The notes under the pieces were generated by a model. That model did not search any database. It was given only the letters and a program-made list of their open reading frames with translations, and was not told where the DNA came from. A stretch of DNA of 54,335 nucleotides from a virus (lineage: Duplodnaviria > Caudoviricetes), in IMG/VR virus record IMGVR_UViG_3300048895_000023, positions 1 to 54,335 of that record; one strand, given 5' to 3'. Below, one piece after another: positions 1 through 46,038 of this stretch; the first letter of the stretch is position 1, and every line of letters begins with the position of its first letter. The translations under genes and the position numbers were made by a program.

Positions 1-54
1 CCTCAAAAATTCTCCGGGGGGATATTTCCGGGGGTGTCTGACTACTTTTACCTC

Positions 55-180
55 CGGATTGTGACGGGGGTACCAAGACTATTTCCATGGGTCTTCATCA
101 GCCCTTCTCCTTTCAAGAGTGCGCGTATCGGTCGGGTCCGAAAAGTGCATTAAAAGTCTTGGTACCTCCATCAAAGTCCG
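55..180 (+). ncRNA. candidate structured small RNA with anti-RBS sequence
   Basis: GGGGGTACCAAGACT (66-80) pairs with AGTCTTGGTACCTCC (155-169), extendable with G-U pairs/mismatches to ~55-180; the interior contains TTCTCCTTTCAAGAG (105-119), the reverse complement of the repeated CTCTTGAAAGGAGAA start signal. Confidence 0.5.
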
Positions 181-208
181 TAGTTACATATTAGAATCGA
201 GTGCAAAC

Positions 209-760
209 ATGAAGAAACTAGATGGAAAGTGGCGGGAACATTCTGGACCAGTTACCATCTGGTCTAAGGGATCGGCAGAGCTTATTCCAGATCGTTTGCG
301 TCGCGTCATCACAATTGTAATGCCGATCATCTACCTGCTGTTTTTCCTTTTCGGATTCACAGCAACACTTTCTCCCGTTCCGATTTTTGAAGCGCTCGTT
401 GGAAACCTCTACGGTTCCATCTGGGCCATGCTTATTGCAATTAGCTCGGGCATAAGTTTGGTGGGTCTTATTTACAGACTCCCATTAGAGATCTATAGTG
501 GTATAGTTCTCACGGCACTACTAACAATCTATCCAATCTACATTGTCCTTCTTGTGATTCACGACATATCTCACAACAACTTCTCGCATGTTGGAACGAT
601 CTACGCAGCAGCGTTATTTCCTATCATGCCAGGTTGGCGAGTAGTCGACATAGTTCTTGAACTACGTAAAGCAAGGCAACGACAGTTGTACGCCAAATTC
701 GCTTTGGGGGAAGGCGCCACAAATGATCGAACTACTTCACACGATGAAAGAGCTGAGTGA
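209..760 (+). CDS. multi-pass membrane protein
   Basis: ORF 119..760, more plausible ATG at 209; about four hydrophobic segments. Confidence 0.7.
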   Translation: MKKLDGKWREHSGPVTIWSKGSAELIPDRLRRVITIVMPIIYLLFFLFGFTATLSPVPIFEALVGNLYGSIWAMLIAISSGISLVGLIYRLPLEIYSGIVLTALLTIYPIYIVLLVIHDISHNNFSHVGTIYAAALFPIMPGWRVVDIVLELRKARQRQLYAKFALGEGATNDRTTSHDERAE

Positions 761-1175
761 GCAAGAAGCCAACGTCCAGGTCGCCATCGTGACCGGCGTC
801 TTTGCCTTTCTCGGAATCCTCACTGCAGGACTCCTAGCACGAAAGGGCTCTCATCCTAAAACACCATCCGAGGATCCGGATCTAAACCATAAGGGCCCGG
901 AGTCTTTACTCTCAACCTATTCGGGTGAGCAGAACGACTTCATGCGTTTGGTCATACAGGACAGCAAGACCGTTCACGAACGCCTTGATCGATTCGAGGG
1001 GATCGTAGAACAGATGAAGAAAGAGCGCACACAATTGATTGGCGCCTTTACCCGTTACATCTCAAAGCTCGTTGACTCATGGGGCAGCGGTGGCAAGATG
1101 CCATACCCCGACGACGAGGATTTCAAGATCCTAGAGGAAACTCTTCCCGCTGATTGGAGACGTCGCACTAAGTAA
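723..1175 (+). CDS. single-pass membrane protein
   Basis: ORF 657..1175, ATG 723 after GGGGGAAGG; one TM segment (VAIVTGVFAFLGILTAGLL) then coiled-coil-like region. Confidence 0.65.
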   Translation: MIELLHTMKELSEQEANVQVAIVTGVFAFLGILTAGLLARKGSHPKTPSEDPDLNHKGPESLLSTYSGEQNDFMRLVIQDSKTVHERLDRFEGIVEQMKKERTQLIGAFTRYISKLVDSWGSGGKMPYPDDEDFKILEETLPADWRRRTK

Positions 1176-1194
1176 CCTAAGGAGGTGATGACCC

Positions 1195-1536
1195 ATGGTG
1201 ACCTCACGTAAAGAAACATCCCCTGGAGCGAAACGTCCTCCAGCCACAACCGTCGTAGGCCGAGAGAATCAGTTGATTGCTCTTTCCTATGACATGGCTG
1301 AGAATCAGCTTCGAGCCGGAACGGCGTCATCACAAGTTATGACTCACTTCCTCAAAATGGGTACCGAACGCGAGCGACTTGAGCGACTCAAGTTGGAACA
1401 AGAAACTCTTCTCGCGCAGGCGCGCGTAGAACAACTTGCCTCGGCAGGTCGAATGGAAGCTCTTCAAGAAGAAGCCATCGCCGCTTTCCGAGGGTATCAA
1501 CCTTCACAGGAGACTGACATTGAGTACGAGGACTAG
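1195..1536 (+). CDS. hypothetical protein, possible terminase small subunit
   Basis: strong RBS AAGGAGGTGA; helical small protein upstream of HNH and terminase genes; function from position only. Confidence 0.5.
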   Translation: MVTSRKETSPGAKRPPATTVVGRENQLIALSYDMAENQLRAGTASSQVMTHFLKMGTERERLERLKLEQETLLAQARVEQLASAGRMEALQEEAIAAFRGYQPSQETDIEYED

Positions 1537-1939
1537 ATCATATTCGGAGATGATTCAATTCTCCACTCTTAAGGATCGGTTCGAATATTTAAGACTCCGA
1601 GCATCTGTTGGCGAATCCACCTTCGGTTTCGATCGATGGGTGAACCAGCAATTTTACAGATCAGTAGAGTGGCGAAGGATTCGCGATATTGTGATTGTCC
1701 GAGATCTAGGTTGTGATCTAGCTGTTTCGGACTACGCCATATTAACAGGTCGAATCATCATTCACCACATGAATCCAATCCGGCTCTCTGAGCTAGACGA
1801 ACGTGATCCTGATATTCTAGATCCTGAATACTTGATCACGACTACTCACGATACACATAACGCTATCCACTACGGAGACGAGTCGTTGCTACCGCAGCCA
1901 TTCGTTGAGAGACGCCCAGGCGACACACGTCTGTGGTAA
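1520..1939 (+). CDS. HNH endonuclease (packaging-associated)
   Basis: FYRSVEWRRIRDIVIVRDLGCDL...IIIHHMNP...THNAIHYG; TTG 1520 follows AGGAG. Confidence 0.8.
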   Translation: MSTRTRSYSEMIQFSTLKDRFEYLRLRASVGESTFGFDRWVNQQFYRSVEWRRIRDIVIVRDLGCDLAVSDYAILTGRIIIHHMNPIRLSELDERDPDILDPEYLITTTHDTHNAIHYGDESLLPQPFVERRPGDTRLW

Positions 1940-1955
1940 TTGAAAAGGAGAAACT

Positions 1956-2381
1956 ATGTCTGACGACATTCCATCGTGGCTTCGGCCCGCGGAACCAGCT
2001 GAACCAGTAGACGCAGCACCAGATCCAGAATTCGCAGCTGAGCCCGTCGAGGCCGGCCCCGAAGAAGTTCCTGAGGATGAGGCTCCCGAGGCCGAAACCC
2101 CAGACGAACTCGAAGAAGACACGCTCGAGGACACAGAGGTTGACCCAGGAGAACATCCTGAAGACGACCCAGAGCCCGAAGAGGAAGTTGAACCGGAAGC
2201 GCCAGAAGAGGAACCAGCTCCTGAGCAGGAGACCTACACGGTCCTTGAGGGCGAGAAGCTTTCTGTCATCGCATCCAAGCTCAACGTTCCAGGCGGCTGG
2301 CCCGCCCTCTACGAAGCGAATCGCGAAGCCCTCGGTGCAAGCCCGAAGGTTCACGCTGGTCAGGTCTTGGTCCTTCCGTAA
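1956..2381 (+). CDS. LysM-domain protein with long acidic Pro/Glu-rich N-terminus
   Basis: C-terminal TYTVLEGEKLSVIASKLNVPGGWPALYEANREALG...VHAGQVLVLP fits LysM. Confidence 0.8.
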   Translation: MSDDIPSWLRPAEPAEPVDAAPDPEFAAEPVEAGPEEVPEDEAPEAETPDELEEDTLEDTEVDPGEHPEDDPEPEEEVEPEAPEEEPAPEQETYTVLEGEKLSVIASKLNVPGGWPALYEANREALGASPKVHAGQVLVLP

Positions 2382-2458
2382 TGGACAGAGACACAGTCGG
2401 AGGTTACGAGATTCTCGTCGATCCGATGGACGACCTGCAGTGCGATTCCTGCCAGTAG
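2381..2458 (+). CDS. 25-aa acidic peptide ending in CDSCQ
   Basis: ATG overlaps the upstream TAA (TAATG); translates MDRDTVGGYEILVDPMDDLQCDSCQ; not in the ORF track. Confidence 0.55.
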   Translation: MDRDTVGGYEILVDPMDDLQCDSCQ

Positions 2459-2466
2459 TTTAACTT

Positions 2467-2503
2467 GAAGTGGCCCTATTCAAAATGGGATCAGGGCCAC
2501 TTC
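2467..2503 (+). other. 11-bp hairpin with TCAAAATGG motif in the loop
   Basis: GAAGTGGCCCT-attcaaaatgggatc-AGGGCCACTTC. Confidence 0.6.
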
Positions 2504-2530
2504 TCTAACGTTTTAGGAAAGGAGGCAGCG

Positions 2531-2920
2531 ATGGCTGATGTAACGCCGCCCGAAGTAGATCCGAAAGCTAGCATCCTAATCAGTACAAAGAAAATGCTGC
2601 AGATCGCTGCCGACGATGATTCCTTCGACACGGACATCATCCTCCACATCAACTCAGTATTTTCCATCCTCCAACAGATAGGCCTCGGTCTGACCGACGA
2701 AGAATTTGTTGTCGAGGATGAAACGCAGCTCTGGGAACAGGCCGTAACGTCGCAGAAGAATCTCAACATGATCAAGTCGTACATGTATTTGAAAGTACGA
2801 ACCATGTTTGACCCTGCAGCTAGTGGCTTTGTAACCGACTCGTTCGAACGACAAATCAAAGAATTCGAGTGGCGCATCATGGTTGCTGCCTCATCGACTC
2901 CAAACATCACTGAAAGCTAG
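2531..2920 (+). CDS. putative head-to-tail adaptor/connector
   Basis: RBS GAAAGGAGG; SILISTKKML...FDTDIILHIN...IKSYMYLKVRTMFDP resembles gp6-like connector proteins. Confidence 0.6.
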   Translation: MADVTPPEVDPKASILISTKKMLQIAADDDSFDTDIILHINSVFSILQQIGLGLTDEEFVVEDETQLWEQAVTSQKNLNMIKSYMYLKVRTMFDPAASGFVTDSFERQIKEFEWRIMVAASSTPNITES

Positions 2921-2931
2921 AAGGGAAGCCC

Positions 2932-3363
2932 ATGGCTACAGACGAAGAAGCAATGGAAGATTTCCTAGCACATTTCGGTGTTCTAGGGATGAAGTGGGGT
3001 AAGCACCTACCTGGTCGAGAAGCAACTTCTATCCGCCAACCCCGTCGCAAGGAACTGCATCCTGATCATATCGAGAAGCAGAACCTAAAGCGCAACGGTG
3101 CAAAGCGACTCAGCACGGCAGAGATCAAGAAAGTTAATGATCGAATCCAGGCAGAGCAGAACTACAAGAAGCTTTCTCCTGGAACTGTGGGTAAAGGTAA
3201 GAAGATCATGCTTGGTCTTATTGCTGCTGCGGGTACGGGCGTAACCGTCTACAACATGGTTCAGTCTCCGGCTGGAAAGAAGGCCATCGAGGTTGGCAGT
3301 GCTGCCCTCGACCGGATGGATGATGCTATCTGGAAAGCCGTAGTCAACAACATGTACCAGTAA
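2932..3363 (+). CDS. LAHxGxxGMKWG-leader protein 1 (putative virion protein)
   Basis: N-terminus MATDEEAMEDFLAHFGVLGMKWG, then basic region and hydrophobic segment. Confidence 0.75.
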   Translation: MATDEEAMEDFLAHFGVLGMKWGKHLPGREATSIRQPRRKELHPDHIEKQNLKRNGAKRLSTAEIKKVNDRIQAEQNYKKLSPGTVGKGKKIMLGLIAAAGTGVTVYNMVQSPAGKKAIEVGSAALDRMDDAIWKAVVNNMYQ

Positions 3364-24149: not shown

Positions 24150-24428
24150 TTGAGTGAAACGTCTATCGACACTGCGAACAAAGGGATTCTTCTCTCTGGG
24201 CGTACCTACGATATTCTGAAAGATGTCAACCTGGTGGGTCTACCTGCTCTAGCGACGCTCTACGCGACTCTAGCTCTTATTTGGCACTGGCCATTCTCAG
24301 AGCAGATCGTTGGCACCATCGCAGCTATCGTTCTTTTCATGGGAGTAATCCTTAAGATCAGTAGCGTGCAGTACAAGGCAAAGGTTGCAGCACTGGACAC
24401 GGAGTTTATGACGGCGGATTCGCAGTAA
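24150..24428 (+). CDS. holin (Dp-1-like)
   Basis: YDILK...LPALATLY...IW...EQIVGTIAA...ISSVQY; two TM segments. Confidence 0.82.
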   Translation: MSETSIDTANKGILLSGRTYDILKDVNLVGLPALATLYATLALIWHWPFSEQIVGTIAAIVLFMGVILKISSVQYKAKVAALDTEFMTADSQ

Positions 24429-24469
24429 TTTCACGCCTTATAATGAACCCCTCTTGAAAGGAGACCCAC

Positions 24470-24748
24470 GTGCGCAAACTGCCCGTAACATTCACCAAAG
24501 CCATCGAAACCGAACAGCTTCGACTTCTCTCTGAAGCCGAGTCGCTAGGAACCGATTCCCCCGATTACAAAACCAAAATTGAATTCATCAAAAGCCTTAA
24601 TGAAACGAAGTCCAAAAAGGACAACAATGCCATTATCGCTGCGCTGATCAGTGCTGGCGCATCCGTCGCAGGAATCCTCCTCGTACTCAACTATGAGAGA
24701 GCCGGAGCCGTCGTCTCGAAGTCGTTTGGACTTGTTAAGAAAGCTTAA
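24470..24748 (+). CDS. cassette 1 small membrane protein
   Basis: GTG after CTCTTGAAAGGAG; C-terminal TM segment. Confidence 0.75.
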   Translation: MRKLPVTFTKAIETEQLRLLSEAESLGTDSPDYKTKIEFIKSLNETKSKKDNNAIIAALISAGASVAGILLVLNYERAGAVVSKSFGLVKKA

Positions 24749-24775
24749 CCACCAAATCAACTAAAAGAACATCCG

Positions 24776-24820
24776 AAAGGAAGGACTAGACCTAAAAATT
24801 CTAGTCCTTCCTTTTTCTTT
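24776..24820 (+). terminator. intrinsic terminator-like hairpin
   Basis: perfect 15-bp stem AAAGGAAGGACTAGA / TCTAGTCCTTCCTTT, loop CCTAAAAAT, T-run. Confidence 0.8.
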
Positions 24821-24845
24821 TCGCGAGAAAAACAACCCCTATAAT

Positions 24846-24960
24846 GAACCAATAAACCGCTTCCCTGCAAAGGGTGTCTCCCGAAAGCGTAACCAATCAG
24901 ACTATTATTCGGACTTTGGTTCTTTATATCCTCACGGTAATTCCACAAAGGTTATAAATT
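24846..24960 (+). ncRNA. candidate small RNA occupying cassette 2
   Basis: promoter motif with no RBS or ORF behind it; GAACCAA (24846) pairs with TTGGTTC (24916); CCCT-GCAA-AGGG GNRA hairpin; CCGAA/TTCGG. Confidence 0.5.
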
Positions 24961-25010
24961 TTGCGCGTGTAATACATGCCTTATAATGAACCCCTATGAA
25001 AGGATTTATT

Positions 25011-25151
25011 ATGAAAGAACTCACAGGCCCACAGATTGCCATTCTGTTTGGTCTAGCATGCACTGCCTCCGCAGTAGCAACTGGACTAGTACTCAGAACC
25101 ATATCTCGAAAGCTCAACCCAGAGCCAGTATCATATCTCTCCGCCATGTAG
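25011..25151 (+). CDS. cassette 3, 46-aa membrane peptide
   Basis: ATG after ATGAAAGGA; MKELTGPQIAILFGLACTASAVATGLVLRTISRKLNPEPVSYLSAM; not in the ORF track. Confidence 0.7.
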   Translation: MKELTGPQIAILFGLACTASAVATGLVLRTISRKLNPEPVSYLSAM

Positions 25152-25241
25152 GCACAGAAAGCTATCAGCCCCTAACACGGGCTATAGTTTTTCGCAGGAA
25201 AAACAGGTCATATAATGAACCCCTCTTGAAAGGAGACTCAC

Positions 25242-25508
25242 ATGACCACCAACTCAAACCCAGATTCCACTAAAGTCATTGCAGTAGTAACTGTAGTAAT
25301 TCTAGGAACGGCCACCATCGTGCTTAGGCACCGCAACTCGCAACTCAAAGCAGAGAACAAGAAATTGTCCTTTACCAAAGTACATTACACGCGGACCATC
25401 GAGCGCCTCATCAACCATATTCCCAGAGATCACTACGACGCTGTTGTTGCCGACTTGAACGAAGATCTGAAGTTTGCGATCATCACACGAGATCTAAACA
25501 AGAACTAA
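25242..25508 (+). CDS. cassette 4 small membrane-anchored protein
   Basis: RBS CTCTTGAAAGGAG; N-terminal TM segment. Confidence 0.75.
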   Translation: MTTNSNPDSTKVIAVVTVVILGTATIVLRHRNSQLKAENKKLSFTKVHYTRTIERLINHIPRDHYDAVVADLNEDLKFAIITRDLNKN

Positions 25509-25591
25509 CAAAGCTATCAGCCCCTCACACGGGCTATAGTTTTTCGCAGGAAAAACAAGGGCTATAGTGAACCCCTATGAAAGGAAAACTA

Positions 25592-25825
25592 ATGACCAAG
25601 TTTCAAACTTTTTGTAAGAAGCACCAGACCCCTATCCTCATCGCAAGTTGCGCTGTCGCTACGGTCGCTGTTGTAATTGCCGTCAATCAGGTTAAGACCC
25701 GAATGATTGCAAACTACACTCCCGACCCCCTAGCCGAAGCCGCAGCTTTCGAAGACTTTACAAAGGCCATGGCTCTCGCAAAGAAGTATGACGCAGAAGA
25801 TGCAGCCAAACTTCTAGGAAAGTAA
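25592..25825 (+). CDS. cassette 5 small membrane-anchored protein
   Basis: ATG 25592 after ATGAAAGGA; one TM segment. Confidence 0.75.
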   Translation: MTKFQTFCKKHQTPILIASCAVATVAVVIAVNQVKTRMIANYTPDPLAEAAAFEDFTKAMALAKKYDAEDAAKLLGK

Positions 25826-25916
25826 AAAGCTATCAGCCCCTCGCACGGGCTATAGTTTTGCCTAGATCTCGCGTAATATTCATAGCATATAATGAACCCC
25901 TATGAAAGGAACAACC

Positions 25917-26003
25917 ATGTTTAACACCATCAAGTCCATCATCGCCGAGATCAAGCAAGACCTTGCTAACGCTCGCCCGATGTGGAACCACGTTGCTAAC
26001 TAA
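25917..26003 (+). CDS. cassette 6, 28-aa peptide
   Basis: own promoter motif and RBS; MFNTIKSIIAEIKQDLANARPMWNHVAN. Confidence 0.65.
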   Translation: MFNTIKSIIAEIKQDLANARPMWNHVAN

Positions 26004-26124
26004 GTTACATCTTCACAGTTAACAAAACCAACAGCCCCTAACACGGGCTTTAGGTTTTTCTCGTCTTATATTTTTGCGCGTGAAAAACAAGGGCTATAGT
26101 GACACCCCTATGAAAGGACACACC

Positions 26125-26379
26125 ATGTCAACTGAAGAAATCCAATTCACCCCCATCGCGATTAAGATCGCTGCCCCTCGAACCGCGCATATTCTGGCGA
26201 TGCTAGAGCCCCGCTTTGCGGAAATGGACTACGATACCCTCCTCCACGGAAACTACGTCGTATTCGATTACCCCGAAAACGGACACTACACCCTCGTCAC
26301 CGAAGAGCGTTTCCAGGCAAAGTTCACCAATCCTTGGGAACCTTGGTTCTTCCAGCCCTTGGTAGTAGACACTATCTAA
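26125..26379 (+). CDS. cassette 7 hypothetical protein
   Basis: ATG 26125 after ATGAAAGGA; 84 aa soluble. Confidence 0.75.
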   Translation: MSTEEIQFTPIAIKIAAPRTAHILAMLEPRFAEMDYDTLLHGNYVVFDYPENGHYTLVTEERFQAKFTNPWEPWFFQPLVVDTI

Positions 26380-26469
26380 GAAGTCAGAAAGCTATCAGCC
26401 CCTCACACGGGCTATAGTTTTTCGCGTAATATTCATAGGGTATAATGAACCCCTATGAAAGGAAAACCC

Positions 26470-26643
26470 ATGACCATCAAGCCCGTCATCGCCAAATCCG
26501 TCTTCACCGTTCAGGCCCACGCCATTGCCGCTGGAACCTTCGCTTACGCGATTGGTTACGTTGCAAAGACCGCGGTCCAGGACAGCGTCAAGACGATCAA
26601 GGAAATGAAAGCCGAAGGCTACTTCACCCCAAATAAGTTCTAA
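26470..26643 (+). CDS. cassette 8 small protein
   Basis: ATG 26470 after ATGAAAGGA; 57 aa with hydrophobic middle. Confidence 0.7.
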   Translation: MTIKPVIAKSVFTVQAHAIAAGTFAYAIGYVAKTAVQDSVKTIKEMKAEGYFTPNKF

Positions 26644-26737
26644 ACCAAAAACCAAAAGCCCCTAACAAGGCCTATGGTTTTATTTTTTGCGCGAGAAAAA
26701 CAAGCGCTATAGTGAAACCTCTTGAAAGGAGATCCTC

Positions 26738-26917
26738 ATGAACGTCACGTTTACCACCAACAACTCCAGCCTCCAGCTCTCCAAAGTTGGTTCCGTAGCT
26801 CTTGTCACCTATGCCACCGTCGGCATGGTTGTCATCAGTCTCGGAATCGCCAACCTCGGAGAACGAGCTGTCGTTGCGTACAAGCGCCGACTCAACCGTA
26901 AGATCAACGAAAAGTAA
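26738..26917 (+). CDS. cassette 9, 59-aa membrane peptide
   Basis: RBS CTCTTGAAAGGAG; MNVTFTT...VALVTYATVGMVVISLGIANL...YKRRLNRKINEK; not in the ORF track. Confidence 0.72.
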   Translation: MNVTFTTNNSSLQLSKVGSVALVTYATVGMVVISLGIANLGERAVVAYKRRLNRKINEK

Positions 26918-27017
26918 ATCACAAAGCCAAAAGCCCCACAAGGCCTATGGTTTTCTTTTTCTCGCGAGATTTTCAGACCCTATAATGAACCCCTATTCTC
27001 TTGAAAGGAGAACCCAA

Positions 27018-27218
27018 ATGAACACCACCGAACCAACCGTCGTGATCCACAACTACCCCACCATCAAGGAGCAGCTTGCACAGGGCGGTATCTCCCTCGC
27101 CATCGGCGTCGGCGTTACCGTTGCCTATGTAGGCGTCTTCGCGCTGGTCGACTTTGTGGGCAAGAAGGTCAAGGCTCGCAAGGCCGCTCAGACCGAAACC
27201 ACCCCTTCAACTGACTAA
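27018..27218 (+). CDS. cassette 10 small membrane protein
   Basis: ATG 27018 after CTCTTGAAAGGAG; one TM segment then basic tail. Confidence 0.75.
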   Translation: MNTTEPTVVIHNYPTIKEQLAQGGISLAIGVGVTVAYVGVFALVDFVGKKVKARKAAQTETTPSTD

Positions 27219-27281
27219 CAATCAAAGCTAAACTACAACTAACACTTGTGGTTTATGCTTTCATTTTTCTAAGGAAGAATC

Positions 27282-27518
27282 ATGACAGTAGAACATGTTA
27301 AGGCGTGGAAGGTCACAGAAGAGAACACTTTGATCCTCAAGAACATATCTGGAGAGGCTGAGGCTACTTTTAAGTCTTGTCCTGGCTGGGTTCTCATTGA
27401 GGACTGGAGTGAGCGCCCGCGCTTTCTTTTGATGCCGGAATCCGTATTCCACACGTACTATCCGAACCTCGAATTCACTGAATTATCAATAGATTCGCGA
27501 GAAATACAAGGGGTATAA
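27282..27518 (+). CDS. hypothetical protein
   Basis: ORF track; RBS TAAGGA; faint resemblance to 26125..26379 and 43888..44211. Confidence 0.65.
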   Translation: MTVEHVKAWKVTEENTLILKNISGEAEATFKSCPGWVLIEDWSERPRFLLMPESVFHTYYPNLEFTELSIDSREIQGV

Positions 27519-27543
27519 TGAACCCCCTATGAAAGGAAAAACC

Positions 27544-27693
27544 ATGAAGAAGCTCAAGCAGAAGTTTGAGGAAGACCCCATCTTCGCTACCACCCTTATC
27601 ATCACCGGAGCAGTCGTTGCTACCGGCCTGATAAAGGCAATTGCGAAGGGAATCGAATCCTCTGCTTACGCCTACCGCGCCTCCAAGCTCTAA
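27544..27693 (+). CDS. cassette 11, 49-aa membrane peptide
   Basis: MKKLKQKFEEDPIFATTLIITGAVVATGLIKAIAKGIESSAYAYRASKL; promoter motif and RBS; not in the ORF track. Confidence 0.72.
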   Translation: MKKLKQKFEEDPIFATTLIITGAVVATGLIKAIAKGIESSAYAYRASKL

Positions 27694-27764
27694 ACCCATA
27701 AGGAACAAAACTCGAACTACAACTAATACTTGTGGTTTGAGTTTCTTTTTTTGAAAGGCATTAC

Positions 27765-28088
27765 ATGCTAGCAATTCATTTTGGAATTCGTGAAAGCGAA
27801 GTAGCCGTATTCAAGGGTCAGATCAGCCGTATGGTCTCAGAACCCCTCGAGATTCGTACATGGGCAGAGGCCTGGGATGCTGGGAATGATCCAGAGTTCA
27901 TCTTGGAGCCTACCACCCACGTAGTACTCACCACCATGACTCCAATGGTTCTGCTCAACTTCATTGCTGGAAACTTCAGTAATTTCCTTGTCCCTCACGC
28001 AGCAGAGAACCTTGACGGTGTTCTGATGTTTGTTACGGACTCGGAAGAGTGGACCAGTGAGTACCTGGAACTCCGATATCCAGGATAA
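27765..28088 (+). CDS. hypothetical protein
   Basis: ORF track; RBS TGAAAGG. Confidence 0.65.
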   Translation: MLAIHFGIRESEVAVFKGQISRMVSEPLEIRTWAEAWDAGNDPEFILEPTTHVVLTTMTPMVLLNFIAGNFSNFLVPHAAENLDGVLMFVTDSEEWTSEYLELRYPG

Positions 28089-28146
28089 ACTCGCGTAAAA
28101 ATCAGGTGTTATAATGACCCAGTAAACCTCTTGAAAGGAAGTTATT

Positions 28147-29636: not shown

Positions 29637-29699
29637 GTCGCATATTTGAGGGCGCTGTCTATACGATGGCGCCCTCAAAAGCTCTCTTGAAAGGAGACT

Positions 29700-31797: not shown

Positions 31798-31820
31798 TAT
31801 AATCTCTTGAAAGGAGAATC

Positions 31821-32555: not shown

Positions 32556-33143
32556 ATGCTACGCAAAGAGATTACGTACACCAACTTCAATGGTAAGGAG
32601 GTGACGAAGCCATTCTTCTTCAACATCACGAAGGCTGAGATCGGTCTCCGTGAGATGGAGTCAGACGGCACCTGGTCTGAGACTCTTAAGACGATCCAGG
32701 AGTCAAACAAGGGCTCCGTCGTTCTCCCAGAGTTCCGTAAGATCATTCAGTGGGTCTATGGAGAGAAGAGCGAAGATGGTGAATCATTCCTCAAGAGTGA
32801 TGAAATTTGGGCCAAGTTCAACAACTCAGAGCCCTGGTCCAAGCTTATCATGGAGCTCCTACAGAACCCAGGCTACGCAGCGCAGTTCATTAAGGAGTGC
32901 ATGCCAGCAGATATGCAGGGTGCTCTTTCGGAGAAGTTGGCTGAACCCGGATTCCGTCCAGGAGCAGACACCTCTCGACCCACACCACCAGCTAATCCGC
33001 CAGCGGCCGCACCTCAACCTGAAGTTGTCCAACAGCCGGCGTATCTCGCTCCGGCACCTGTTGAAGTAGCTCCACAGCAACCAGCTACCGAAGCACCAGT
33101 AGTACAGCAGTCGACTCCTCGCGAGCCTGATCTGTCGCAGTAA
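32556..33143 (+). CDS. conserved phage hypothetical protein
   Basis: MLRKEITYTNFNG...YGEKSEDG.SF.KS; Pro/Gln-rich tail. Confidence 0.7.
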   Translation: MLRKEITYTNFNGKEVTKPFFFNITKAEIGLREMESDGTWSETLKTIQESNKGSVVLPEFRKIIQWVYGEKSEDGESFLKSDEIWAKFNNSEPWSKLIMELLQNPGYAAQFIKECMPADMQGALSEKLAEPGFRPGADTSRPTPPANPPAAAPQPEVVQQPAYLAPAPVEVAPQQPATEAPVVQQSTPREPDLSQ

Positions 33144-33280
33144 ATTCCCGAAAGGGAGCCCGGTCAGGGGTCGAACTCTGGCCGGGCACATAGATTTATG
33201 GGGAATATTCCGTCACTACCACCTCCTTTCAAGATAAAGTGGCTGGAATGTTTTAAATAACAGCAAATCAGTGCCCCGAT
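33144..33280 (+). ncRNA. candidate structured RNA with anti-RBS loop
   Basis: TCCC-GAAA-GGGA and GC hairpins, then AATATTCC.GTCACT-[ACCACCTCCTTTCAAGATAA]-AGTGGC.GGAATGTT. Confidence 0.55.
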
Positions 33281-33285
33281 TTTTA

Positions 33286-33465
33286 TGAAGGTCGAATGAC
33301 TACCGTAGACGCCACTTTTTCATAGGGGTTGCGTTTGGTAATGAGTTATATGCTTACTGTGTGTTCGTTGAAGTCCGGTGACTCGGGCTGTACCCAGGTC
33401 TATAAAAACGTGGAGCGATCTTAAGAAGCACTGATAGTCATATTTATGAGCTATAACTAACCTTC
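33286..33465 (+). ncRNA. candidate pseudoknotted RNA motif, copy 2
   Basis: same conserved blocks as 31698-31797 with compensatory changes and a longer insert. Confidence 0.65.
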
Positions 33466-33751
33466 CCGTACCAGGGGATTTCCCAGTGCCTTCGATGACT
33501 TGACGAAAGTCAGTTAGCCGGAGGGGAATCTGAAATGACCGCCAATACCTAAAGGCGCCCTGGTACATCATATTTTTAGGGCATCGGATAAGCCTAATCC
33601 TGAGCGGAATACGCAGGGAAGAAATAAACCGACGACGAGCCGGAGTTAGACCTTGGTAGCAGTCCCCGGATAAAACGGGCTGTGAAACGTAGAGTATCGG
33701 AATCCTGGGCACGATCTAAAACTACCCAACCTTATTCTTTACAAGGAGAGA

Positions 33752-33976
33752 ATGATGATGTTCAAGCGTTATATTAAGGTTAGCCTTGAAAAGAAGGCTG
33801 ATGAGTATGGCATTATAATGCCGCATGATCGACCCAACCCGTATTATGAGAAGATCGTCGAACGGCAGACAAAGCGCTTGTTCGTTGGAAGTCTTATTCT
33901 CATTGGAACAACAGTAGTCCTGGTCACGGTCGGACAGATTACTGTGAACGCTCTAAACCCGGCCTCGCGAAAATAA
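33752..33976 (+). CDS. small membrane protein
   Basis: RBS AAGGAG; C-terminal TM segment. Confidence 0.65.
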   Translation: MMMFKRYIKVSLEKKADEYGIIMPHDRPNPYYEKIVERQTKRLFVGSLILIGTTVVLVTVGQITVNALNPASRK

Positions 33977-33992
33977 CAACCCCTATAATGAA
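33965..33992 (+). promoter_or_regulatory. promoter motif copy 13
   Basis: TCGCG-AAAATAA-CA-ACCCC-TATAATGAA. Confidence 0.85.
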
Positions 33993-34034
33993 GCCCCGTC
34001 TGGGACTTTATATTTCTCTTGAAAGGAGAATGTC

Positions 34035-34403
34035 ATGGCATCAATTAATAAGCTTGCGCTCGTAAAGGGCGCTGCTGAGCTTGTCACCGCAGCTGGTGTC
34101 AGCGCAATCGTTGGAAACCTCGTTCGCGCAACCACGCCGGATGACATCAACAAGTTCCAGAAGGTCGTTATCGGCATCGGTGGATATTCTCTCGCCGCCG
34201 TCCTTGGCGGTCTCTCGGGAAAGTACATCGCTGACCAGATCGACGACTACGCAACCACGATCCAGGGCATCCTGAAGTCGGGTACGATCGTCGAAATCGA
34301 GGTTGCACCGGAGGACAAGGACGTGGATCCTGAGGTAGAAGCTGCTCCAGTCGAGCCGGCACCTGCCAAAAAGACCACCAAGCCGACCACCGACCAGGAC
34401 TAA
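34035..34403 (+). CDS. hypothetical membrane-associated protein
   Basis: RBS CTCTTGAAAGGAG; two hydrophobic segments. Confidence 0.75.
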   Translation: MASINKLALVKGAAELVTAAGVSAIVGNLVRATTPDDINKFQKVVIGIGGYSLAAVLGGLSGKYIADQIDDYATTIQGILKSGTIVEIEVAPEDKDVDPEVEAAPVEPAPAKKTTKPTTDQD

Positions 34404-38390: not shown

Positions 38391-38412
38391 CTCACGCTCT
38401 TGAAAGGAGGAA

Positions 38413-44211: not shown

Positions 44212-44262
44212 CCATTTATCCTGGGTATGATTTAAAACTGCCCTTCTCTTGAAAGGAGACAT

Positions 44263-44682
44263 ATGCCTAGTATTGAAGGATTGGCCGATGAGCCATGCCT
44301 TATTTGTAATCACCTACTTCGACACCATGTGAACGGACCAGAGGTCAAAGGCGCATGCCAGGGTCTCTTGTGTCGGTGCGATGGGTTTGTCTTTAATCCT
44401 ACCCCAGTAGCAGACAAGATGGGAAGACTTTACGAAGAAGCAGTTCTTGAACCGGACATGGTAAATCATCCCCCGCACTACAAGAGTGGTTCCATTGAGG
44501 TCTGGGACTTCATTATCGACCAAGATCTCTCTTACGCATCCGGGAATGTAGTAAAGTATATTTCCAGAGCAGGTAAGAAGGGTAAGGACACCCATCTGCA
44601 GGACCTTGAGAAGGCACAGGCATATCTCAAGCGCGAAATTCAACGAGTAAAAGATCTCTTGAAAGGAGATAAAAGTGGATGA
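44263..44682 (+). CDS. DUF3310-like protein with N-terminal Cys/His extension
   Basis: VNHPPHY..G.IEVWDFI...GNVVKYISRAGKK...DLEKA..YL.REI. Confidence 0.8.
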   Translation: MPSIEGLADEPCLICNHLLRHHVNGPEVKGACQGLLCRCDGFVFNPTPVADKMGRLYEEAVLEPDMVNHPPHYKSGSIEVWDFIIDQDLSYASGNVVKYISRAGKKGKDTHLQDLEKAQAYLKREIQRVKDLLKGDKSG

Positions 44683-45297: not shown

Positions 45298-45713
45298 TTA
45301 CGGAGTGGTGGCAGTGGATATTCGTGATTGCTGGAGGACTCCTGCTTGCGGGAATCTCCTACATCCTATTCAGTATCATTATTGGGCTGATTGCTATGTG
45401 GAGCGGTAAGATCTACTGGCACACTTATGCCTGGGCTCACAACCGTAAAGCCCGTAAGCTGAATGAGAAGGCTCGACTTGAGCGACTCAAGCGTACGGAT
45501 TGGGAAGGCATTCGTCTTCCTATGGGCAAGTCTGGCGAATTGACATATTCTGTCGAAGAGCAGATGTCCTGGGTAAGTGTTGACTCCCATCGTCTTGAGA
45601 AGGTCCTTAAGGATCGTGCTGATGACCTGGGAGTTGAGTTCCAATTTGCTACCAACAACGCGACGAGAGAAATCTCTGTTCGTTGGGCACCACGTCTGCG
45701 CGTGGATAAATAG
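45294..45713 (+). CDS. membrane-anchored hypothetical protein
   Basis: N-terminal TM segment. Confidence 0.7.
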   Translation: MITEWWQWIFVIAGGLLLAGISYILFSIIIGLIAMWSGKIYWHTYAWAHNRKARKLNEKARLERLKRTDWEGIRLPMGKSGELTYSVEEQMSWVSVDSHRLEKVLKDRADDLGVEFQFATNNATREISVRWAPRLRVDK

Positions 45714-46015
45714 GTCTTAGGCGCAGAGCGGGTAATGGGGTGACTTCATAGAGGAGGAGATCATCAAACGGGTTGAAGCCGGATTTGCTAACTAGTTTAG
45801 CCAAAAACCTACCCCATTATCGTGACAATTACTAGCATGCACCGGTTGAAAAAGCCCGGATAGTCGGTCACTATGAGTGATCCAAAAGCCCCTGCTGATT
45901 AATTAGGTCATTCATAGGCTGTGTGACGAGAATGGACGGACTGATTACCCGTCTATACGAGGCTCGTCAGGGGGCCGCTCTAGGAAATCTTACTGACCTA
46001 GAGCGGCCCTTCCAC
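45714..46015 (+). ncRNA. candidate structured RNA region
   Basis: ~300 nt without an ORF of 60 aa or more; stems GGTAATGGGGT/ACCCCATTATC, GTGAC/GTCAC, CTATGAGTGA/TCATTCATAG, TGACGAG/CTCGTCA, GGCCGCTCTAGG/CCTAGAGCGGCC. Confidence 0.45.
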
Positions 46016-46038
46016 CAAACTCTCTTGAAAGGGGAAGA

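What the first reader, a model, noticed from the sequence alone, without database searches (positions are those of the whole stretch)
55..180. Left-end structured RNA displaying the exact antisense of the non-structural-gene RBS
Seen: a long stem (66-80 with 155-169, extendable) encloses TTCTCCTTTCAAGAG, a 15-nt perfect complement of CTCTTGAAAGGAGAA (26998, 31804, 34016) and a 13-nt complement of CTCTTGAAAGGAG found before 10 genes. Structural genes use RBSs without the CTCTT extension. Inference: made at the head of the late transcript, this RNA could silence translation of many early/middle mRNAs, including the DNA polymerase gene, while sparing late genes. Alternative: it is an RBS for a 16-codon minus-strand ORF (MKTHGNSLGTPVTIRR).
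Basis: partly seen in the sequence, partly recalled or inferred. Interest (0 to 1): 0.82.

Follow-up and report, generated by a model that had tools for sequence, protein, structure and literature searches.

The report
Phage RNA displaying an anti-ribosome-binding-site sequence
Next to its left end this phage has a conserved folded element, probably an RNA, that holds out the exact complement of the ribosome-binding motif used by a dozen of its non-structural genes, so it may switch those genes off by base pairing, which has not been shown.

Summary
Window 49-186 is a long inverted repeat. It encloses a small hairpin, a mostly unpaired CTCCTTTCAAGAG (107-119) and a second hairpin.

The same layout occurs near the cos end, or before the small-terminase-like gene, in at least 50 independent phage lineages. 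These include Arthrobacter, Curtobacterium and Bifidobacterium phage isolates. Stem sequences are unrelated between lineages, so the pairs are compensatory.

G.U pairs favour the + strand (116 against 35), so the + strand is the folded one. That argues against the minus-strand mini-ORF alternative.

The invariant part is CTCCTTTC, identical to the 3' tail of 16S rRNA. The 12-13-nt match to the RBS motif CTCTTGAAAGGAG holds only in this phage's clade. There, every genome but one has one reverse copy (the element) and 1-10 forward copies before non-structural genes.

My best reading (about 0.42) is a trans-acting anti-RBS RNA. Transcription, timing and repression are not shown. Accessibility-corrected energies give only modest selectivity.

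The element matches no Rfam family. It parallels the unexplained single reverse start-associated sequence of Cluster K mycobacteriophages.

All earlier scan notes concern this same window; none are on other DNA.

The parts
49..186 (+). Whole structured element: long closing helix enclosing hairpin 1, the anti-RBS stretch and hairpin 2
   Evidence: The arms are 49-83 and 152-186. Fold z-score is -6.06. Covariance model R1 scores 105 bits on the + strand and 19.4 on the - strand. The same layout is seen in 59 elements forming 50 stem clusters.
66..80 (+). 5' arm of the core closing stem
   Evidence: It pairs with 155-169 by 14 Watson-Crick pairs plus G68.U167. Relatives keep a stem at this place with unrelated sequence.
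155..169 (+). 3' arm of the core closing stem
89..104 (+). Hairpin 1 (GGGU/GCCC stem, 8-nt loop), 2 nt upstream of the anti-RBS stretch
   Evidence: A hairpin occupies this position in relatives, and 3 of its 4 pairs show changes on both sides.
107..119 (+). Anti-RBS stretch CTCCTTTCAAGAG. The core 107-114 (CTCCTTTC) equals the 16S rRNA 3' tail; the extension 115-119 is AAGAG. The 15-nt complement spans 105-119.
   Evidence: It is the exact reverse complement of the RBS motif. Opening costs 2.85 kcal/mol for 13 nt and 0.39 for the core. The core is kept in 42 of 51 motif-blind strong inverted-repeat loops, against 0 for its complement. The 16S tail was checked.
118..151 (+). Hairpin 2 (two-tier stem-loop) following the anti-RBS stretch
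   Evidence: A second hairpin is present in most relatives.
24451..24463 (+). Forward RBS motif before the first gene of the non-structural arm (24470-24748, about 92 aa with a C-terminal hydrophobic stretch that looks like a membrane helix)
   Evidence: Homologous genes at about 30% identity carry the same 13-mer in six phage isolates.
25223..25235 (+). Forward RBS motif, 6 nt before ATG 25242
26719..26731 (+). Forward RBS motif, 6 nt before ATG 26738
26998..27010 (+). Forward RBS motif (15-nt complement), 7 nt before ATG 27018
28128..28140 (+). Forward RBS motif with one mismatch (CTCTTGAAAGGAA), before ATG 28147
29684..29696 (+). Forward RBS motif before ATG 29703
31804..31816 (+). Forward RBS motif (15-nt complement), directly after a TATAAT box and before GTG 31821
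34016..34028 (+). Forward RBS motif (15-nt complement) before ATG 34035
38397..38409 (+). Forward RBS motif before the 1279-aa primase/DNA polymerase gene
   Evidence: The gene matches PHROG 4210 and Pfam DUF5906.
44246..44258 (+). Forward RBS motif before ATG 44263 (DUF3310 protein)
44656..44668 (+). Forward RBS motif before GTG 44675
46022..46034 (+). Forward RBS motif with one mismatch (CTCTTGAAAGGGG), before GTG 46039

Best explanation
Window 49-186 encodes a structured RNA read from the + strand. A long closing helix (20-40 bp in relatives) holds two small hairpins. Between them lies a mostly single-stranded CUCCUUUCAAGAG.

The first eight bases are identical to the 3' tail of 16S rRNA, the anti-Shine-Dalgarno sequence. 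They therefore pair with any GAAAGGAG-type ribosome-binding site. In this phage and its clade, four to five further bases make the stretch a perfect 12-13-nt antisense of the start-associated motif CUCUUGAAAGGAG. That motif sits 3-7 nt before the start codons of 12 non-structural genes.

I propose that the RNA pairs with these translation-initiation regions, competes with the 30S subunit and lowers their translation, perhaps also their stability. Structural genes lack the CUCUU extension, and several of the strongest late sites, though not all, pair better with 16S rRNA than with the element.

Shown: the structure, its conservation and covariation, the folded strand, the accessibility of the stretch, the complementarity, and the co-occurrence of one reverse copy with 1-10 forward copies across the clade.

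Inferred: that it is RNA rather than single-stranded DNA, where and when it is transcribed, whether the long helix is processed (for example by RNase III), and the repression itself.
For: Structure and significance:
- The inverted repeat and fold are real.
- Inverted-repeat alignment scores at the elements of 17 genomes are 27.5-65.5, and 16 of 17 are at least 38.5. At 2532 random positions the score is 15.8 +/- 2.7 with a maximum of 36.
- A motif-blind scan found a strong inverted repeat (score at least 36) in 51 of 103 unique cos ends. The loop holds CTCCTT in 47, CTCCTTTC in 42 and the complement AAGGAG in 0.
- In 79 loci chosen only by terminase similarity, CTCCTT is enclosed by such a repeat in 5 loci (143 occurrences scanned). 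AAGGAG is enclosed in 0 (546 occurrences).

Covariation:
- On an ordinary MAFFT alignment of six members, 16 of 25 pairs change on both sides.
- 81.3% of cells pair, against 66.9% in shuffles (0 of 500 shuffles as high) and 43-50% when the partners are slid.

Strand:
- In 50 independent stems, mismatches that are G.U on the + strand number 116. Those that would be G.U on the - strand number 35 (p = 2e-11).
- 38 clusters favour the + strand, 6 the - strand and 6 are tied. Base composition predicts a ratio of only 1.19.
- The + strand fold is the more stable in 16 of 19 sequences.

Accessibility: the median unpaired probability of the core is 0.73, and it exceeds 0.5 in 52 of 59 elements.

16S identity: the tail motif ends at the 3' end of the SSU rRNA match in a Microbacterium and a Staphylococcus genome.

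Clade-wide co-occurrence:
- CTCTT precedes 10 of 17 GAAAGGAG sites in the window, 4 of 11 in G001 and in G009, and 3 of 12 in G002.
- G006 has ATCTT at 2 of 6 sites, matching its own AAGAT variant.
- Six isolates (Gordon, Sloopyjoe, Uzumaki, Giantsbane, Argan, JoyLin) each have exactly 1 reverse copy and 1-4 forward copies.
- The first forward copy always precedes a homologous protein of about 95 aa, whose identity is only about 25-40% to the window and across genera (up to 66% between the two Gordonvirus isolates), while the 13-mer is identical.

Energies: raw duplexes between the element and the motif RBSs are -23 to -27 kcal/mol. The same RBSs with the 16S tail give mostly -12.7, and -15.6 at the polymerase gene.
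Against: - No expression data exist. No promoter is recognisable upstream.
- Beyond the 8-nt core the complementarity is not general. The predicted extension occurs 0 times in 10 of 10 genomes with other extensions. G016 (TTAAT, 4 copies) and G019 (AATCT, 4 copies) have repeated RBS extensions that do not match their own element. G008 has the CAAGAG element but 0 of 8 matching sites.
- Variants at the last position of the element are compensated in G006 but not in G007 or Giantsbane.
- The forward motif can fold on itself (CUCUU-GAA-AGGAG). After opening costs, motif sites score -10.7 to -15.4 kcal/mol while late genes 7534 and 6202 score -13.6 and -10.8. Predicted selectivity is therefore modest.
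- Shared descent of the clade could explain part of the co-occurrence.
- Single-stranded DNA of the + strand would give the same wobble asymmetry.
Confidence: 0.42

Rival explanations
1. It is a + strand RNA that works in cis or structurally. It would be a leader or processing element in front of the packaging/structural operon. The long helix would serve as an RNase III site, a 5' or 3' end stabiliser or a transcription barrier. The anti-SD would pair with the Shine-Dalgarno sequence of the first downstream gene to tune its translation.
For: - The element always lies just upstream of the first late-type gene, in most relatives a small-terminase-like gene.
- In Curtobacterium phage JoyLin it sits 1.9 kb from the end but directly before that gene.
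- The downstream gene usually has a strong GAAAGGAG-type RBS 20-80 nt after the helix. In L225, L293, L216 and L320 it matches the element over 10-11 nt.
- The universal part of the element is only the 8-nt anti-SD.
Against: - In the window the first downstream gene (ATG 209) has no Shine-Dalgarno sequence to pair with.
- The anti-SD is locked inside a very stable helix far from the downstream RBS, which is an odd design for a cis anti-SD.
- No U-tract follows the helix, so it is not a canonical terminator.
- In Circum a TGnTATAAT-like box lies between the element and the next gene, which would leave the element out of that mRNA.
- This reading does not explain the conserved 12-13-nt match to distant RBSs.
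Confidence: 0.2
2. It is a decoy of the 16S rRNA 3' tail for a protein rather than for mRNAs. The partner could be a host ribonuclease or toxin that cuts the anti-SD region, a phage RNase that targets Shine-Dalgarno sites, or a ribosomal or rRNA-processing factor.
For: - The invariant part equals the 16S tail.
- It follows a hairpin, loosely as the tail follows helix 45 (the helix 45 comparison is recalled, not tested).
- The extension varies freely in most lineages.
- A second + strand copy in the window (33214-33235) matches 11 nt of the tail.
Against: - No candidate protein partner was identified.
- It does not explain the 12-13-nt clade-wide match to the RBS motif.
- The spacing to hairpin 1 (0-3 nt) differs from the 16S tail (the 16S spacing is recalled).
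Confidence: 0.1
3. It is a DNA-level signal. The 13-bp sequence would be an operator for a phage DNA-binding regulator, as with the stoperators of Cluster A mycobacteriophages. The left-end copy would be one more operator. Alternatively the inverted repeat belongs to the packaging (cos) or replication machinery.
For: - 6-7 of the 12 forward copies lie 0-26 nt after TATAAT-type boxes, a typical operator position.
- The element is 20-50 nt from the cos end in most relatives, and its outer pairs reach the conserved cos palindrome.
- An asymmetric site present once in reverse orientation is also known for Cluster K start-associated sequences. Their authors left both protein and RNA partners open.
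Against: - The G.U against A.C asymmetry (116 to 35) is not expected for duplex DNA or for a cruciform.
- The element is found 300-1900 nt from cos in several phages, so it is not tied to the end.
- Most lineages keep only GAAAGGAG/CTCCTTTC, which is too generic to be an operator.
- Five forward copies have no promoter nearby.
Confidence: 0.1
4. It is the ribosome-binding site of a small minus-strand gene (MKTHGNSLGTPVTIRR).
For: - ATG lies 8 nt after the minus-strand GGAG.
- Circum has an annotated 65-aa leftward gene after the same motif.
- The spacer GGGC.GATGA is similar in the window, L163 and Circum.
Against: - Only 18 of 50 lineages have any start codon at RBS spacing, and the ORFs are 1-16 codons except in Circum and one open frame.
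- L163, the closest structural match, has 6 codons.
- Wobble pairs favour the other strand.
- Circum gp2 overlaps the conserved helix.
Confidence: 0.03

Closest known systems
Start-associated sequences (SAS) of Cluster K mycobacteriophages and Cluster EF Microbacterium phages (PMC3203893 and PMC7302621, passages read)
   Same: - A 13-bp asymmetric motif containing the Shine-Dalgarno core lies a few bases before start codons.
- It is restricted to the non-structural half of the genome and is more conserved than 16S pairing requires.
[quoted passage not shown] In Anaya I found one at 59870-59882, in the gp96-gp97 gap.
- Its function is stated to be unknown: a host or phage product, RNA or protein.
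   Different: - The sequence is different (GGGATAGGAGCCC or GGGAAAGGACCCC, against CTCTTGAAAGGAG).
- No structured antisense element has been described there.
- I did not show that the Anaya reverse site sits in a comparable fold, because folding of such high-GC sequence is uninformative.
- Cluster K sites often carry extended inverted repeats (ESAS), which I did not see here.
Phage antisense RNAs that occlude a ribosome-binding site: P1/P7 c4 RNA acting on the icd/ant message, P22 sar, lambda OOP
   Same: A structured phage RNA presents short single-stranded complementary stretches that pair with a translation-initiation region and block the ribosome. c4 is cut out of a longer transcript, as I suspect happens here.
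   Different: Those RNAs act on one neighbouring operon and are encoded opposite or next to their target. This element would act on up to 12 dispersed genes through a shared RBS motif. Its invariant core is the anti-SD sequence itself.
T4 RegB endoribonuclease (PMC3014915, passages read)
   Same: The logic is the same: early messages are inactivated through their Shine-Dalgarno sequence (GGAG), while most middle and all late messages escape.
   Different: RegB is a protein nuclease helped by ribosomal protein S1. Here the proposed agent is an RNA acting by pairing. That review states that no small trans-acting regulatory RNA had been functionally characterised in T4.
[quoted passage not shown]
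   Same: Many copies of a 13-bp asymmetric site lie in intergenic gaps, oriented with transcription.
   Different: Stoperators are duplex-DNA sites for the repressor. They are not ribosome-binding sites and are not displayed in a covarying single-strand fold.
STAB-SD 5' stabiliser of Bacillus thuringiensis cryIIIA mRNA (recalled)
   Same: A Shine-Dalgarno-related sequence in an untranslated region is used for something other than starting translation.
   Different: STAB-SD is a Shine-Dalgarno sequence that binds the ribosome. Here the folded strand carries the complement, which cannot bind the 16S tail.

Membership tests
Trans-acting antisense/small RNA that blocks translation initiation | An accessible single-stranded seed complementary to the target's ribosome-binding region | tested here: met
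   The complement is 13 nt exact to 10 RBSs and 15 nt to 3 of them. Opening costs 2.85 kcal/mol. The core is unpaired with probability above 0.5 in 52 of 59 elements.
Trans-acting antisense/small RNA that blocks translation initiation | Conserved secondary structure supported by covariation on the RNA strand | tested here: met
   16 of 25 pairs change on both sides, with 0 of 500 shuffles as high. The G.U asymmetry is 116 to 35.
Trans-acting antisense/small RNA that blocks translation initiation | Seed and targets change together between genomes | tested here: inconclusive
   The G006 variant is matched by its own RBSs, but those of G007 and Giantsbane are not. The extension is unmatched in 10 of 10 genomes of other types.
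Trans-acting antisense/small RNA that blocks translation initiation | The RNA is made and represses its targets | not testable with these tools
   This needs transcript mapping and reporter assays.
Start-associated sequence (SAS) systems | A 13-bp asymmetric motif containing the Shine-Dalgarno core, 3-7 nt before starts, limited to non-structural genes, with one orientation plus a single reverse copy | tested here: met
   There are 12 forward copies between 24451 and 46034 and none in 1-24 kb. Spacing is 3-7 nt. The reverse copies are at 107-119 and, with one mismatch, at 33223-33235. The motif sequence differs from the published ones.
Ribosome-binding site of a minus-strand protein gene | A start codon at RBS spacing and an open reading frame conserved among relatives | tested here: not met
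   18 of 50 lineages have a start codon, and the ORFs are 1-16 codons apart from two exceptions.
Intrinsic (rho-independent) terminator | A GC-rich hairpin with a short loop followed by a U-tract | tested here: not met
   The loop is 68 nt and the tail reads CCATCAAAG. The scan reports none in 1-400.
Any Rfam family | A covariance-model match | tested here: not met
   There were 0 matches up to E = 10 in window 1-1000.
Operator/stoperator for a DNA-binding regulator | A specific protein binds the duplex site | not testable with these tools
   Only the positions relative to promoters can be seen.
16S rRNA 3'-tail mimic | Sequence identity to the tail in an exposed context | tested here: met
   CTCCTTTC lies within GGATCACCTCCTTTCT, which ends at the 3' end of the SSU rRNA matches in L423 and L388. 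It is exposed. Any function as a mimic is untested.

The most novel reading that the evidence does not exclude
Many Gram-positive phages that share this cos end and this terminase type would carry an RNA that copies the 3' tail of 16S rRNA. It would compete with the ribosome for Shine-Dalgarno sequences. By adding a few bases to both the RNA and a chosen set of ribosome-binding sites, a phage would gain a private address code that switches a whole gene class off at once. This would be the missing partner of start-associated sequences, whose function has been open since 2011, including the lone reverse copy in Cluster K mycobacteriophages.
Probability: 0.25. Interest if true: 0.9.

Novelty: new variant of a known kind. 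Interest (0 to 1): 0.74.

Why it matters
Start-associated sequences are among the clearest unexplained repeats in actinobacteriophage genomes. Their authors asked whether an RNA or a protein reads them.

This element is a concrete, conserved candidate RNA reader. Cultured and genetically tractable systems are at hand (Arthrobacter phages Circum, Gordon and Sloopyjoe), so the question can be tested directly.

If the reading is right, it would be the first multi-target phage RNA that works by imitating the ribosome's own anti-SD sequence. It would also add an RNA motif found in at least 50 phage lineages that matches no Rfam family.

There is a practical gain too. It flags probable mis-annotations: the leftward gene gp2 of Circum, and start codons placed inside the motif.

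Tried and rejected
Searches that found nothing useful:
- Nucleotide searches of the left end against the phage collection found nothing (megablast of 1-1200; blastn of 1-400). Relatives were reached through motifs instead.
- blastn of two AT-rich relatives hit only coding parts.
- Public sequencing runs: no RNA holder is listed for window 1-3000.
- Rfam gave no match at the left end.
- The search for RF00177 in the window's own record returned no loci from the control genomes. I therefore checked the 16S tail through a pattern scan and Rfam on two loci.

Tests with a negative or mixed result:
- Extension covariation outside the clade was negative in 10 of 10 genomes. I no longer claim that the 13-nt match is a general rule.
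- The element was not found upstream of the small-terminase-like gene in Streptomyces phage Bing, Rhodococcus phage ReqiPoco6 or Gordonia phage Tanis, within the stretches fetched.

Methods that failed or were set aside:
- Scripts 80 and 81 failed on an index error. Script 82 used a duplex search that allowed very long loops and dropped 31 of 83 genes, so I discarded it in favour.
- The model-fitted alignment A2 contains reverse-strand rows because the fold is nearly symmetric. I did not count pairs on it.
- The cos-end set is not fully independent of the motif.

Literature:
- One search was far too broad. One found nothing ('start associated sequence' + RNAseq + phage, 0 papers).
- Searches for an anti-SD phage RNA gave no paper describing such an element. 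This covers only the held library.
- In the Arthrobacter phage survey (PMC5513430, passages) the words 'promoter', 'Shine-Dalgarno' and 'ribosome binding' occur 0 times.
Figure S3 and Tables S1-S6 of PMC3203893 list the reverse sites of Adephagia, Angelica and CrimD and could bear on the Cluster K parallel.

Ideas considered and rejected:
- Intrinsic terminator: there is no U-tract.
- STAB-SD: it would lie on the wrong strand.
- phi29-type packaging RNA and ColE1-type primer RNA: nothing supports them, and neither explains the anti-SD.
Full report
WHAT THE WINDOW IS. The window is a near-complete phage record of 54,335 bp with 49% G+C and essentially all genes on the + strand. Its first bases resemble the left cohesive end of Arthrobacter phage Circum. 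The left arm holds lysis, packaging and virion genes. The right arm (24-54 kb) holds small genes and replication genes, including a 1279-aa primase/DNA polymerase (PHROG 4210) and an 899-aa protein of PHROG 4291.

THE OBSERVATION.
- Bases 66-80 pair with 155-169 (14 Watson-Crick pairs plus one G.U). The repeat extends to 49-83 and 152-186.
- The fold is far more stable than shuffles (z = -6.06).
- CTCTTGAAAGGAG occurs 10 times on the + strand and once on the - strand at 107-119, against 0.00 expected. With up to two mismatches there are 12 forward copies and 2 reverse copies.
- Every forward copy ends 3-7 nt before a start codon, and none lies in the structural arm.
- The 16-codon minus-strand ORF exists.

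THE SAME ELEMENT ELSEWHERE. Related records also had exactly one copy on the strand opposite to the others, and in the record starting at a cohesive end it lay near the left end. I therefore collected phage ends through a palindrome next to the cohesive end.
- In 23 of 121 end segments the antisense 13-mer (at most one mismatch) lies on the gene strand within 1.5 kb of the end. The forward motif lies there in only 2.
- Folding 19 distinct examples gave one architecture every time: a very long closing helix, a hairpin, the unpaired CUCCUUUC..., and a second hairpin.
- Relaxing the search to CTCCTT gave 59 elements in 50 unrelated stem clusters. Median length is 142 nt.
- A motif-blind scan is the fairest test. 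Of 103 unique ends, 51 have a strong inverted repeat. Its loop contains CTCCTT in 47, CTCCTTTC in 42 and the complement AAGGAG in none.
- Random positions in 17 genomes never reached the scores seen at 16 of the 17 elements.
- An independent set of 79 loci chosen by terminase similarity gave the same one-sided result: 5 loci against 0.
- A sequence-only alignment of six members already shows 16 of 25 pairs changed on both sides. Pairing is 81% against 67% in shuffles and 43-50% with slid partners.
- Named isolates with the element are Arthrobacter phages Circum, Gordon, Giantsbane, Sloopyjoe, Uzumaki and Argan, Curtobacterium phage JoyLin and Bifidobacterium phage BitterVaud1.
- It was not found in the stretches fetched from Streptomyces phage Bing, ReqiPoco6 or Gordonia phage Tanis.
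- It matches no Rfam family.

WHICH STRAND FOLDS. A G.U pair on one strand is an A.C mismatch on the other. I aligned the two arms without giving any credit to wobble pairs.
- The 50 independent stems hold 116 mismatches that are G.U on the + strand and 35 that would be G.U on the - strand (p = 2e-11). 38 clusters favour the + strand against 6 for the - strand.
- Arm composition predicts a ratio of only 1.19.
- The folded molecule therefore has the + strand sequence.
- This, together with the lack of a conserved frame, disposes of the minus-strand gene reading. Only 18 of 50 lineages have a start codon at RBS spacing, with ORFs of 1-16 codons apart from Circum's annotated 65-codon gp2 and one open frame. 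Circum gp2 overlaps the conserved helix and is probably not a gene.

WHAT IS CONSERVED IN THE LOOP.
- Positions 7 and 8 of CTCCTTTC were not imposed by my search. They are T in 46 of 50 and C in 40 of 50 clusters. The following five bases vary, with AAGAG or AAGAT the commonest.
- CTCCTTTC lies inside GGATCACCTCCTTTCT, which ends at the 3' end of the SSU rRNA match in a Microbacterium and a Staphylococcus genome.
- The universal feature is therefore an exposed copy of the anti-Shine-Dalgarno tail. The median unpaired probability is 0.73, above 0.5 in 52 of 59 elements.

IS THE 13-NT MATCH MEANINGFUL? I fetched 16 further full contigs and listed the five bases before every gene-strand GAAAGGAG.
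- In genomes whose element ends in AAGAG or AAGAT, the matching extension is the commonest one. It precedes 10 of 17 sites in the window, 4 of 11 in G001 and in G009, and 3 of 12 in G002. G006 has 2 of 6 as ATCTT, which fits its own variant. G007 has 3 CTCTT and 1 TTCTT of 8 against an AAGAT element. G008 has none of 8.
- Six isolates each have one reverse copy and 1-4 exact forward copies.
- In those six isolates and in Circum the first forward copy precedes a homologous protein of about 95 aa. Its C-terminal hydrophobic stretch looks like a membrane helix. In five of the seven the upstream gene is annotated holin or membrane protein. Identity is only about 25-40% to the window and across genera, and reaches 66% between the two Gordonvirus isolates, while the 13-mer is unchanged.
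- Against this, the predicted extension was found 0 times in all 10 genomes with other extensions. Two of them (G016, G019) have repeated RBS extensions that do not fit their element. The Giantsbane variant is not compensated.
- The extended pairing is thus a property of one clade, layered on an older 8-nt anti-SD element.

ENERGETICS.
- Raw duplexes between the loop and the motif RBSs are -23 to -27 kcal/mol. The same RBSs with the 16S tail give mostly -12.7, and -15.6 at the polymerase gene.
- Several of the strongest late-gene RBSs pair better with the 16S tail, up to -20.5.
- The forward motif can fold on itself (CUCUU-GAA-AGGAG). After opening costs are included, motif sites score -10.7 to -15.4 and take 10 of the top 13 places. 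Late genes 7534 (-13.6) and 6202 (-10.8) and the last gene 54010 (-13.2) fall in the same range.
- The calculation supports pairing but shows only modest selectivity.

TRANSCRIPTION IS THE WEAK POINT.
- The 14 copies of the right-arm promoter motif all lie between 24.4 and 50.4 kb.
- No sigma-70-like site precedes the element on the + strand.
- In most relatives the fold begins 20-50 nt from the physical end. A promoter must therefore be very close to the end, or transcription must cross the joined ends.
- Contigs in which the ends are joined show a conserved G-run/C-run hairpin before the junction, with no U-tract after it.
- A consensus promoter-like site lies at 53952-53980, before the last gene.

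COMPARISON WITH WHAT IS KNOWN.
- The forward motif meets the published description of start-associated sequences. [quoted passage not shown] It leaves open whether an RNA or a protein reads the sites.
- In Anaya I located that reverse site at 59870-59882, in a 385-nt non-coding gap near the right end. I could not judge its fold.
- The proposed mode of action resembles phage antisense RNAs such as P1 c4 (recalled). It serves the same end as T4 RegB, which inactivates early messages through their GGAG.
- I found no description of a phage RNA that carries the anti-SD sequence (held library only).

VERDICT.
- The element is real, widespread and previously undescribed as far as my searches reach.
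- The most likely function is pairing with ribosome-binding sites. In this clade that means pairing with the start-associated motif of non-structural genes (about 0.42).
- A cis or processing role (0.2), a protein decoy (0.1) and a DNA-level signal (0.1) remain open.
- The minus-strand gene is very unlikely (0.03).

Noticed in passing
window 33214-33235 (+): A second + strand copy of the anti-SD reads CACCTCCTTTCAAGAT. It shares 11 nt with the 16S tail and 12 nt with the complement of the RBS motif. It sits in the loop of a short hairpin inside a 900-nt non-coding gap (33143-34035). The six isolates checked have no second reverse copy at one mismatch or fewer.
   Followed up: partly
window 45690-45745 (+): There is an Rfam match to the Pistol ribozyme (RF02679): 43.4 bits against a gathering score of 34.5, covering the full model.
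   Followed up: no
window 54290-54335 (+) and the joined ends of G007, G012, G013, G015, G017, G018: A conserved hairpin (G-run, loop, C-run) followed by TGCAT lies just before the cohesive end. Contigs with joined ends carry about 9 more bases (CGC.GCC.T-like) between TGCAT and the left-end CCT/CTT. The window lacks these bases, which are probably the single-stranded overhang lost in library preparation.
   Followed up: partly
window 11-27 and the same place in about 100 phage ends: A near-palindromic box TCYCCGGSGGRATATTT lies 10 nt from the left end. It is shared by phages of very different G+C content. A second box, AAACTAT, sits at the 3' foot of the long helix and can pair with the ATATTT of the first box.
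   Followed up: partly
L127 372-569 (-); L505 502 and 8996 (Arthrobacter phage Circum): Annotated gp2 (65 aa, leftward) overlaps the conserved helix and is probably spurious. The annotated starts of gp28 and gp53 fall inside the 13-mer motif, so the true starts are probably the next ATG downstream.
   Followed up: partly
window 51296-53995 (+): An 899-aa protein matches PHROG 4291 along its whole length. That family is labelled 'RNA-dependent RNA polymerase'. The protein has a C-terminal helix-turn-helix. It may be a phage RNA polymerase that makes the late transcripts.
   Followed up: no
window 24421-28115, 33966, 50367 (+): There are 14 copies of CGC-N8-CA-N5-TATART against 1.17 expected, all on the + strand. 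Several lie 5-13 nt before the RBS motif, so those messages would begin almost at the motif.
   Followed up: partly
L379 (Mycobacterium phage Anaya) 59870-59882: The single reverse start-associated sequence (GGCCTCCTATCCC on the + strand) lies in the non-coding gap between gp96 and gp97, just after a strong hairpin.
   Followed up: partly
window 209-760 (+): The first gene after the element has no Shine-Dalgarno sequence. A TATTAG box lies 15 nt upstream, so its message may be nearly leaderless. L163 has a homologous-looking membrane protein in the same place, but with a strong RBS.
   Followed up: no
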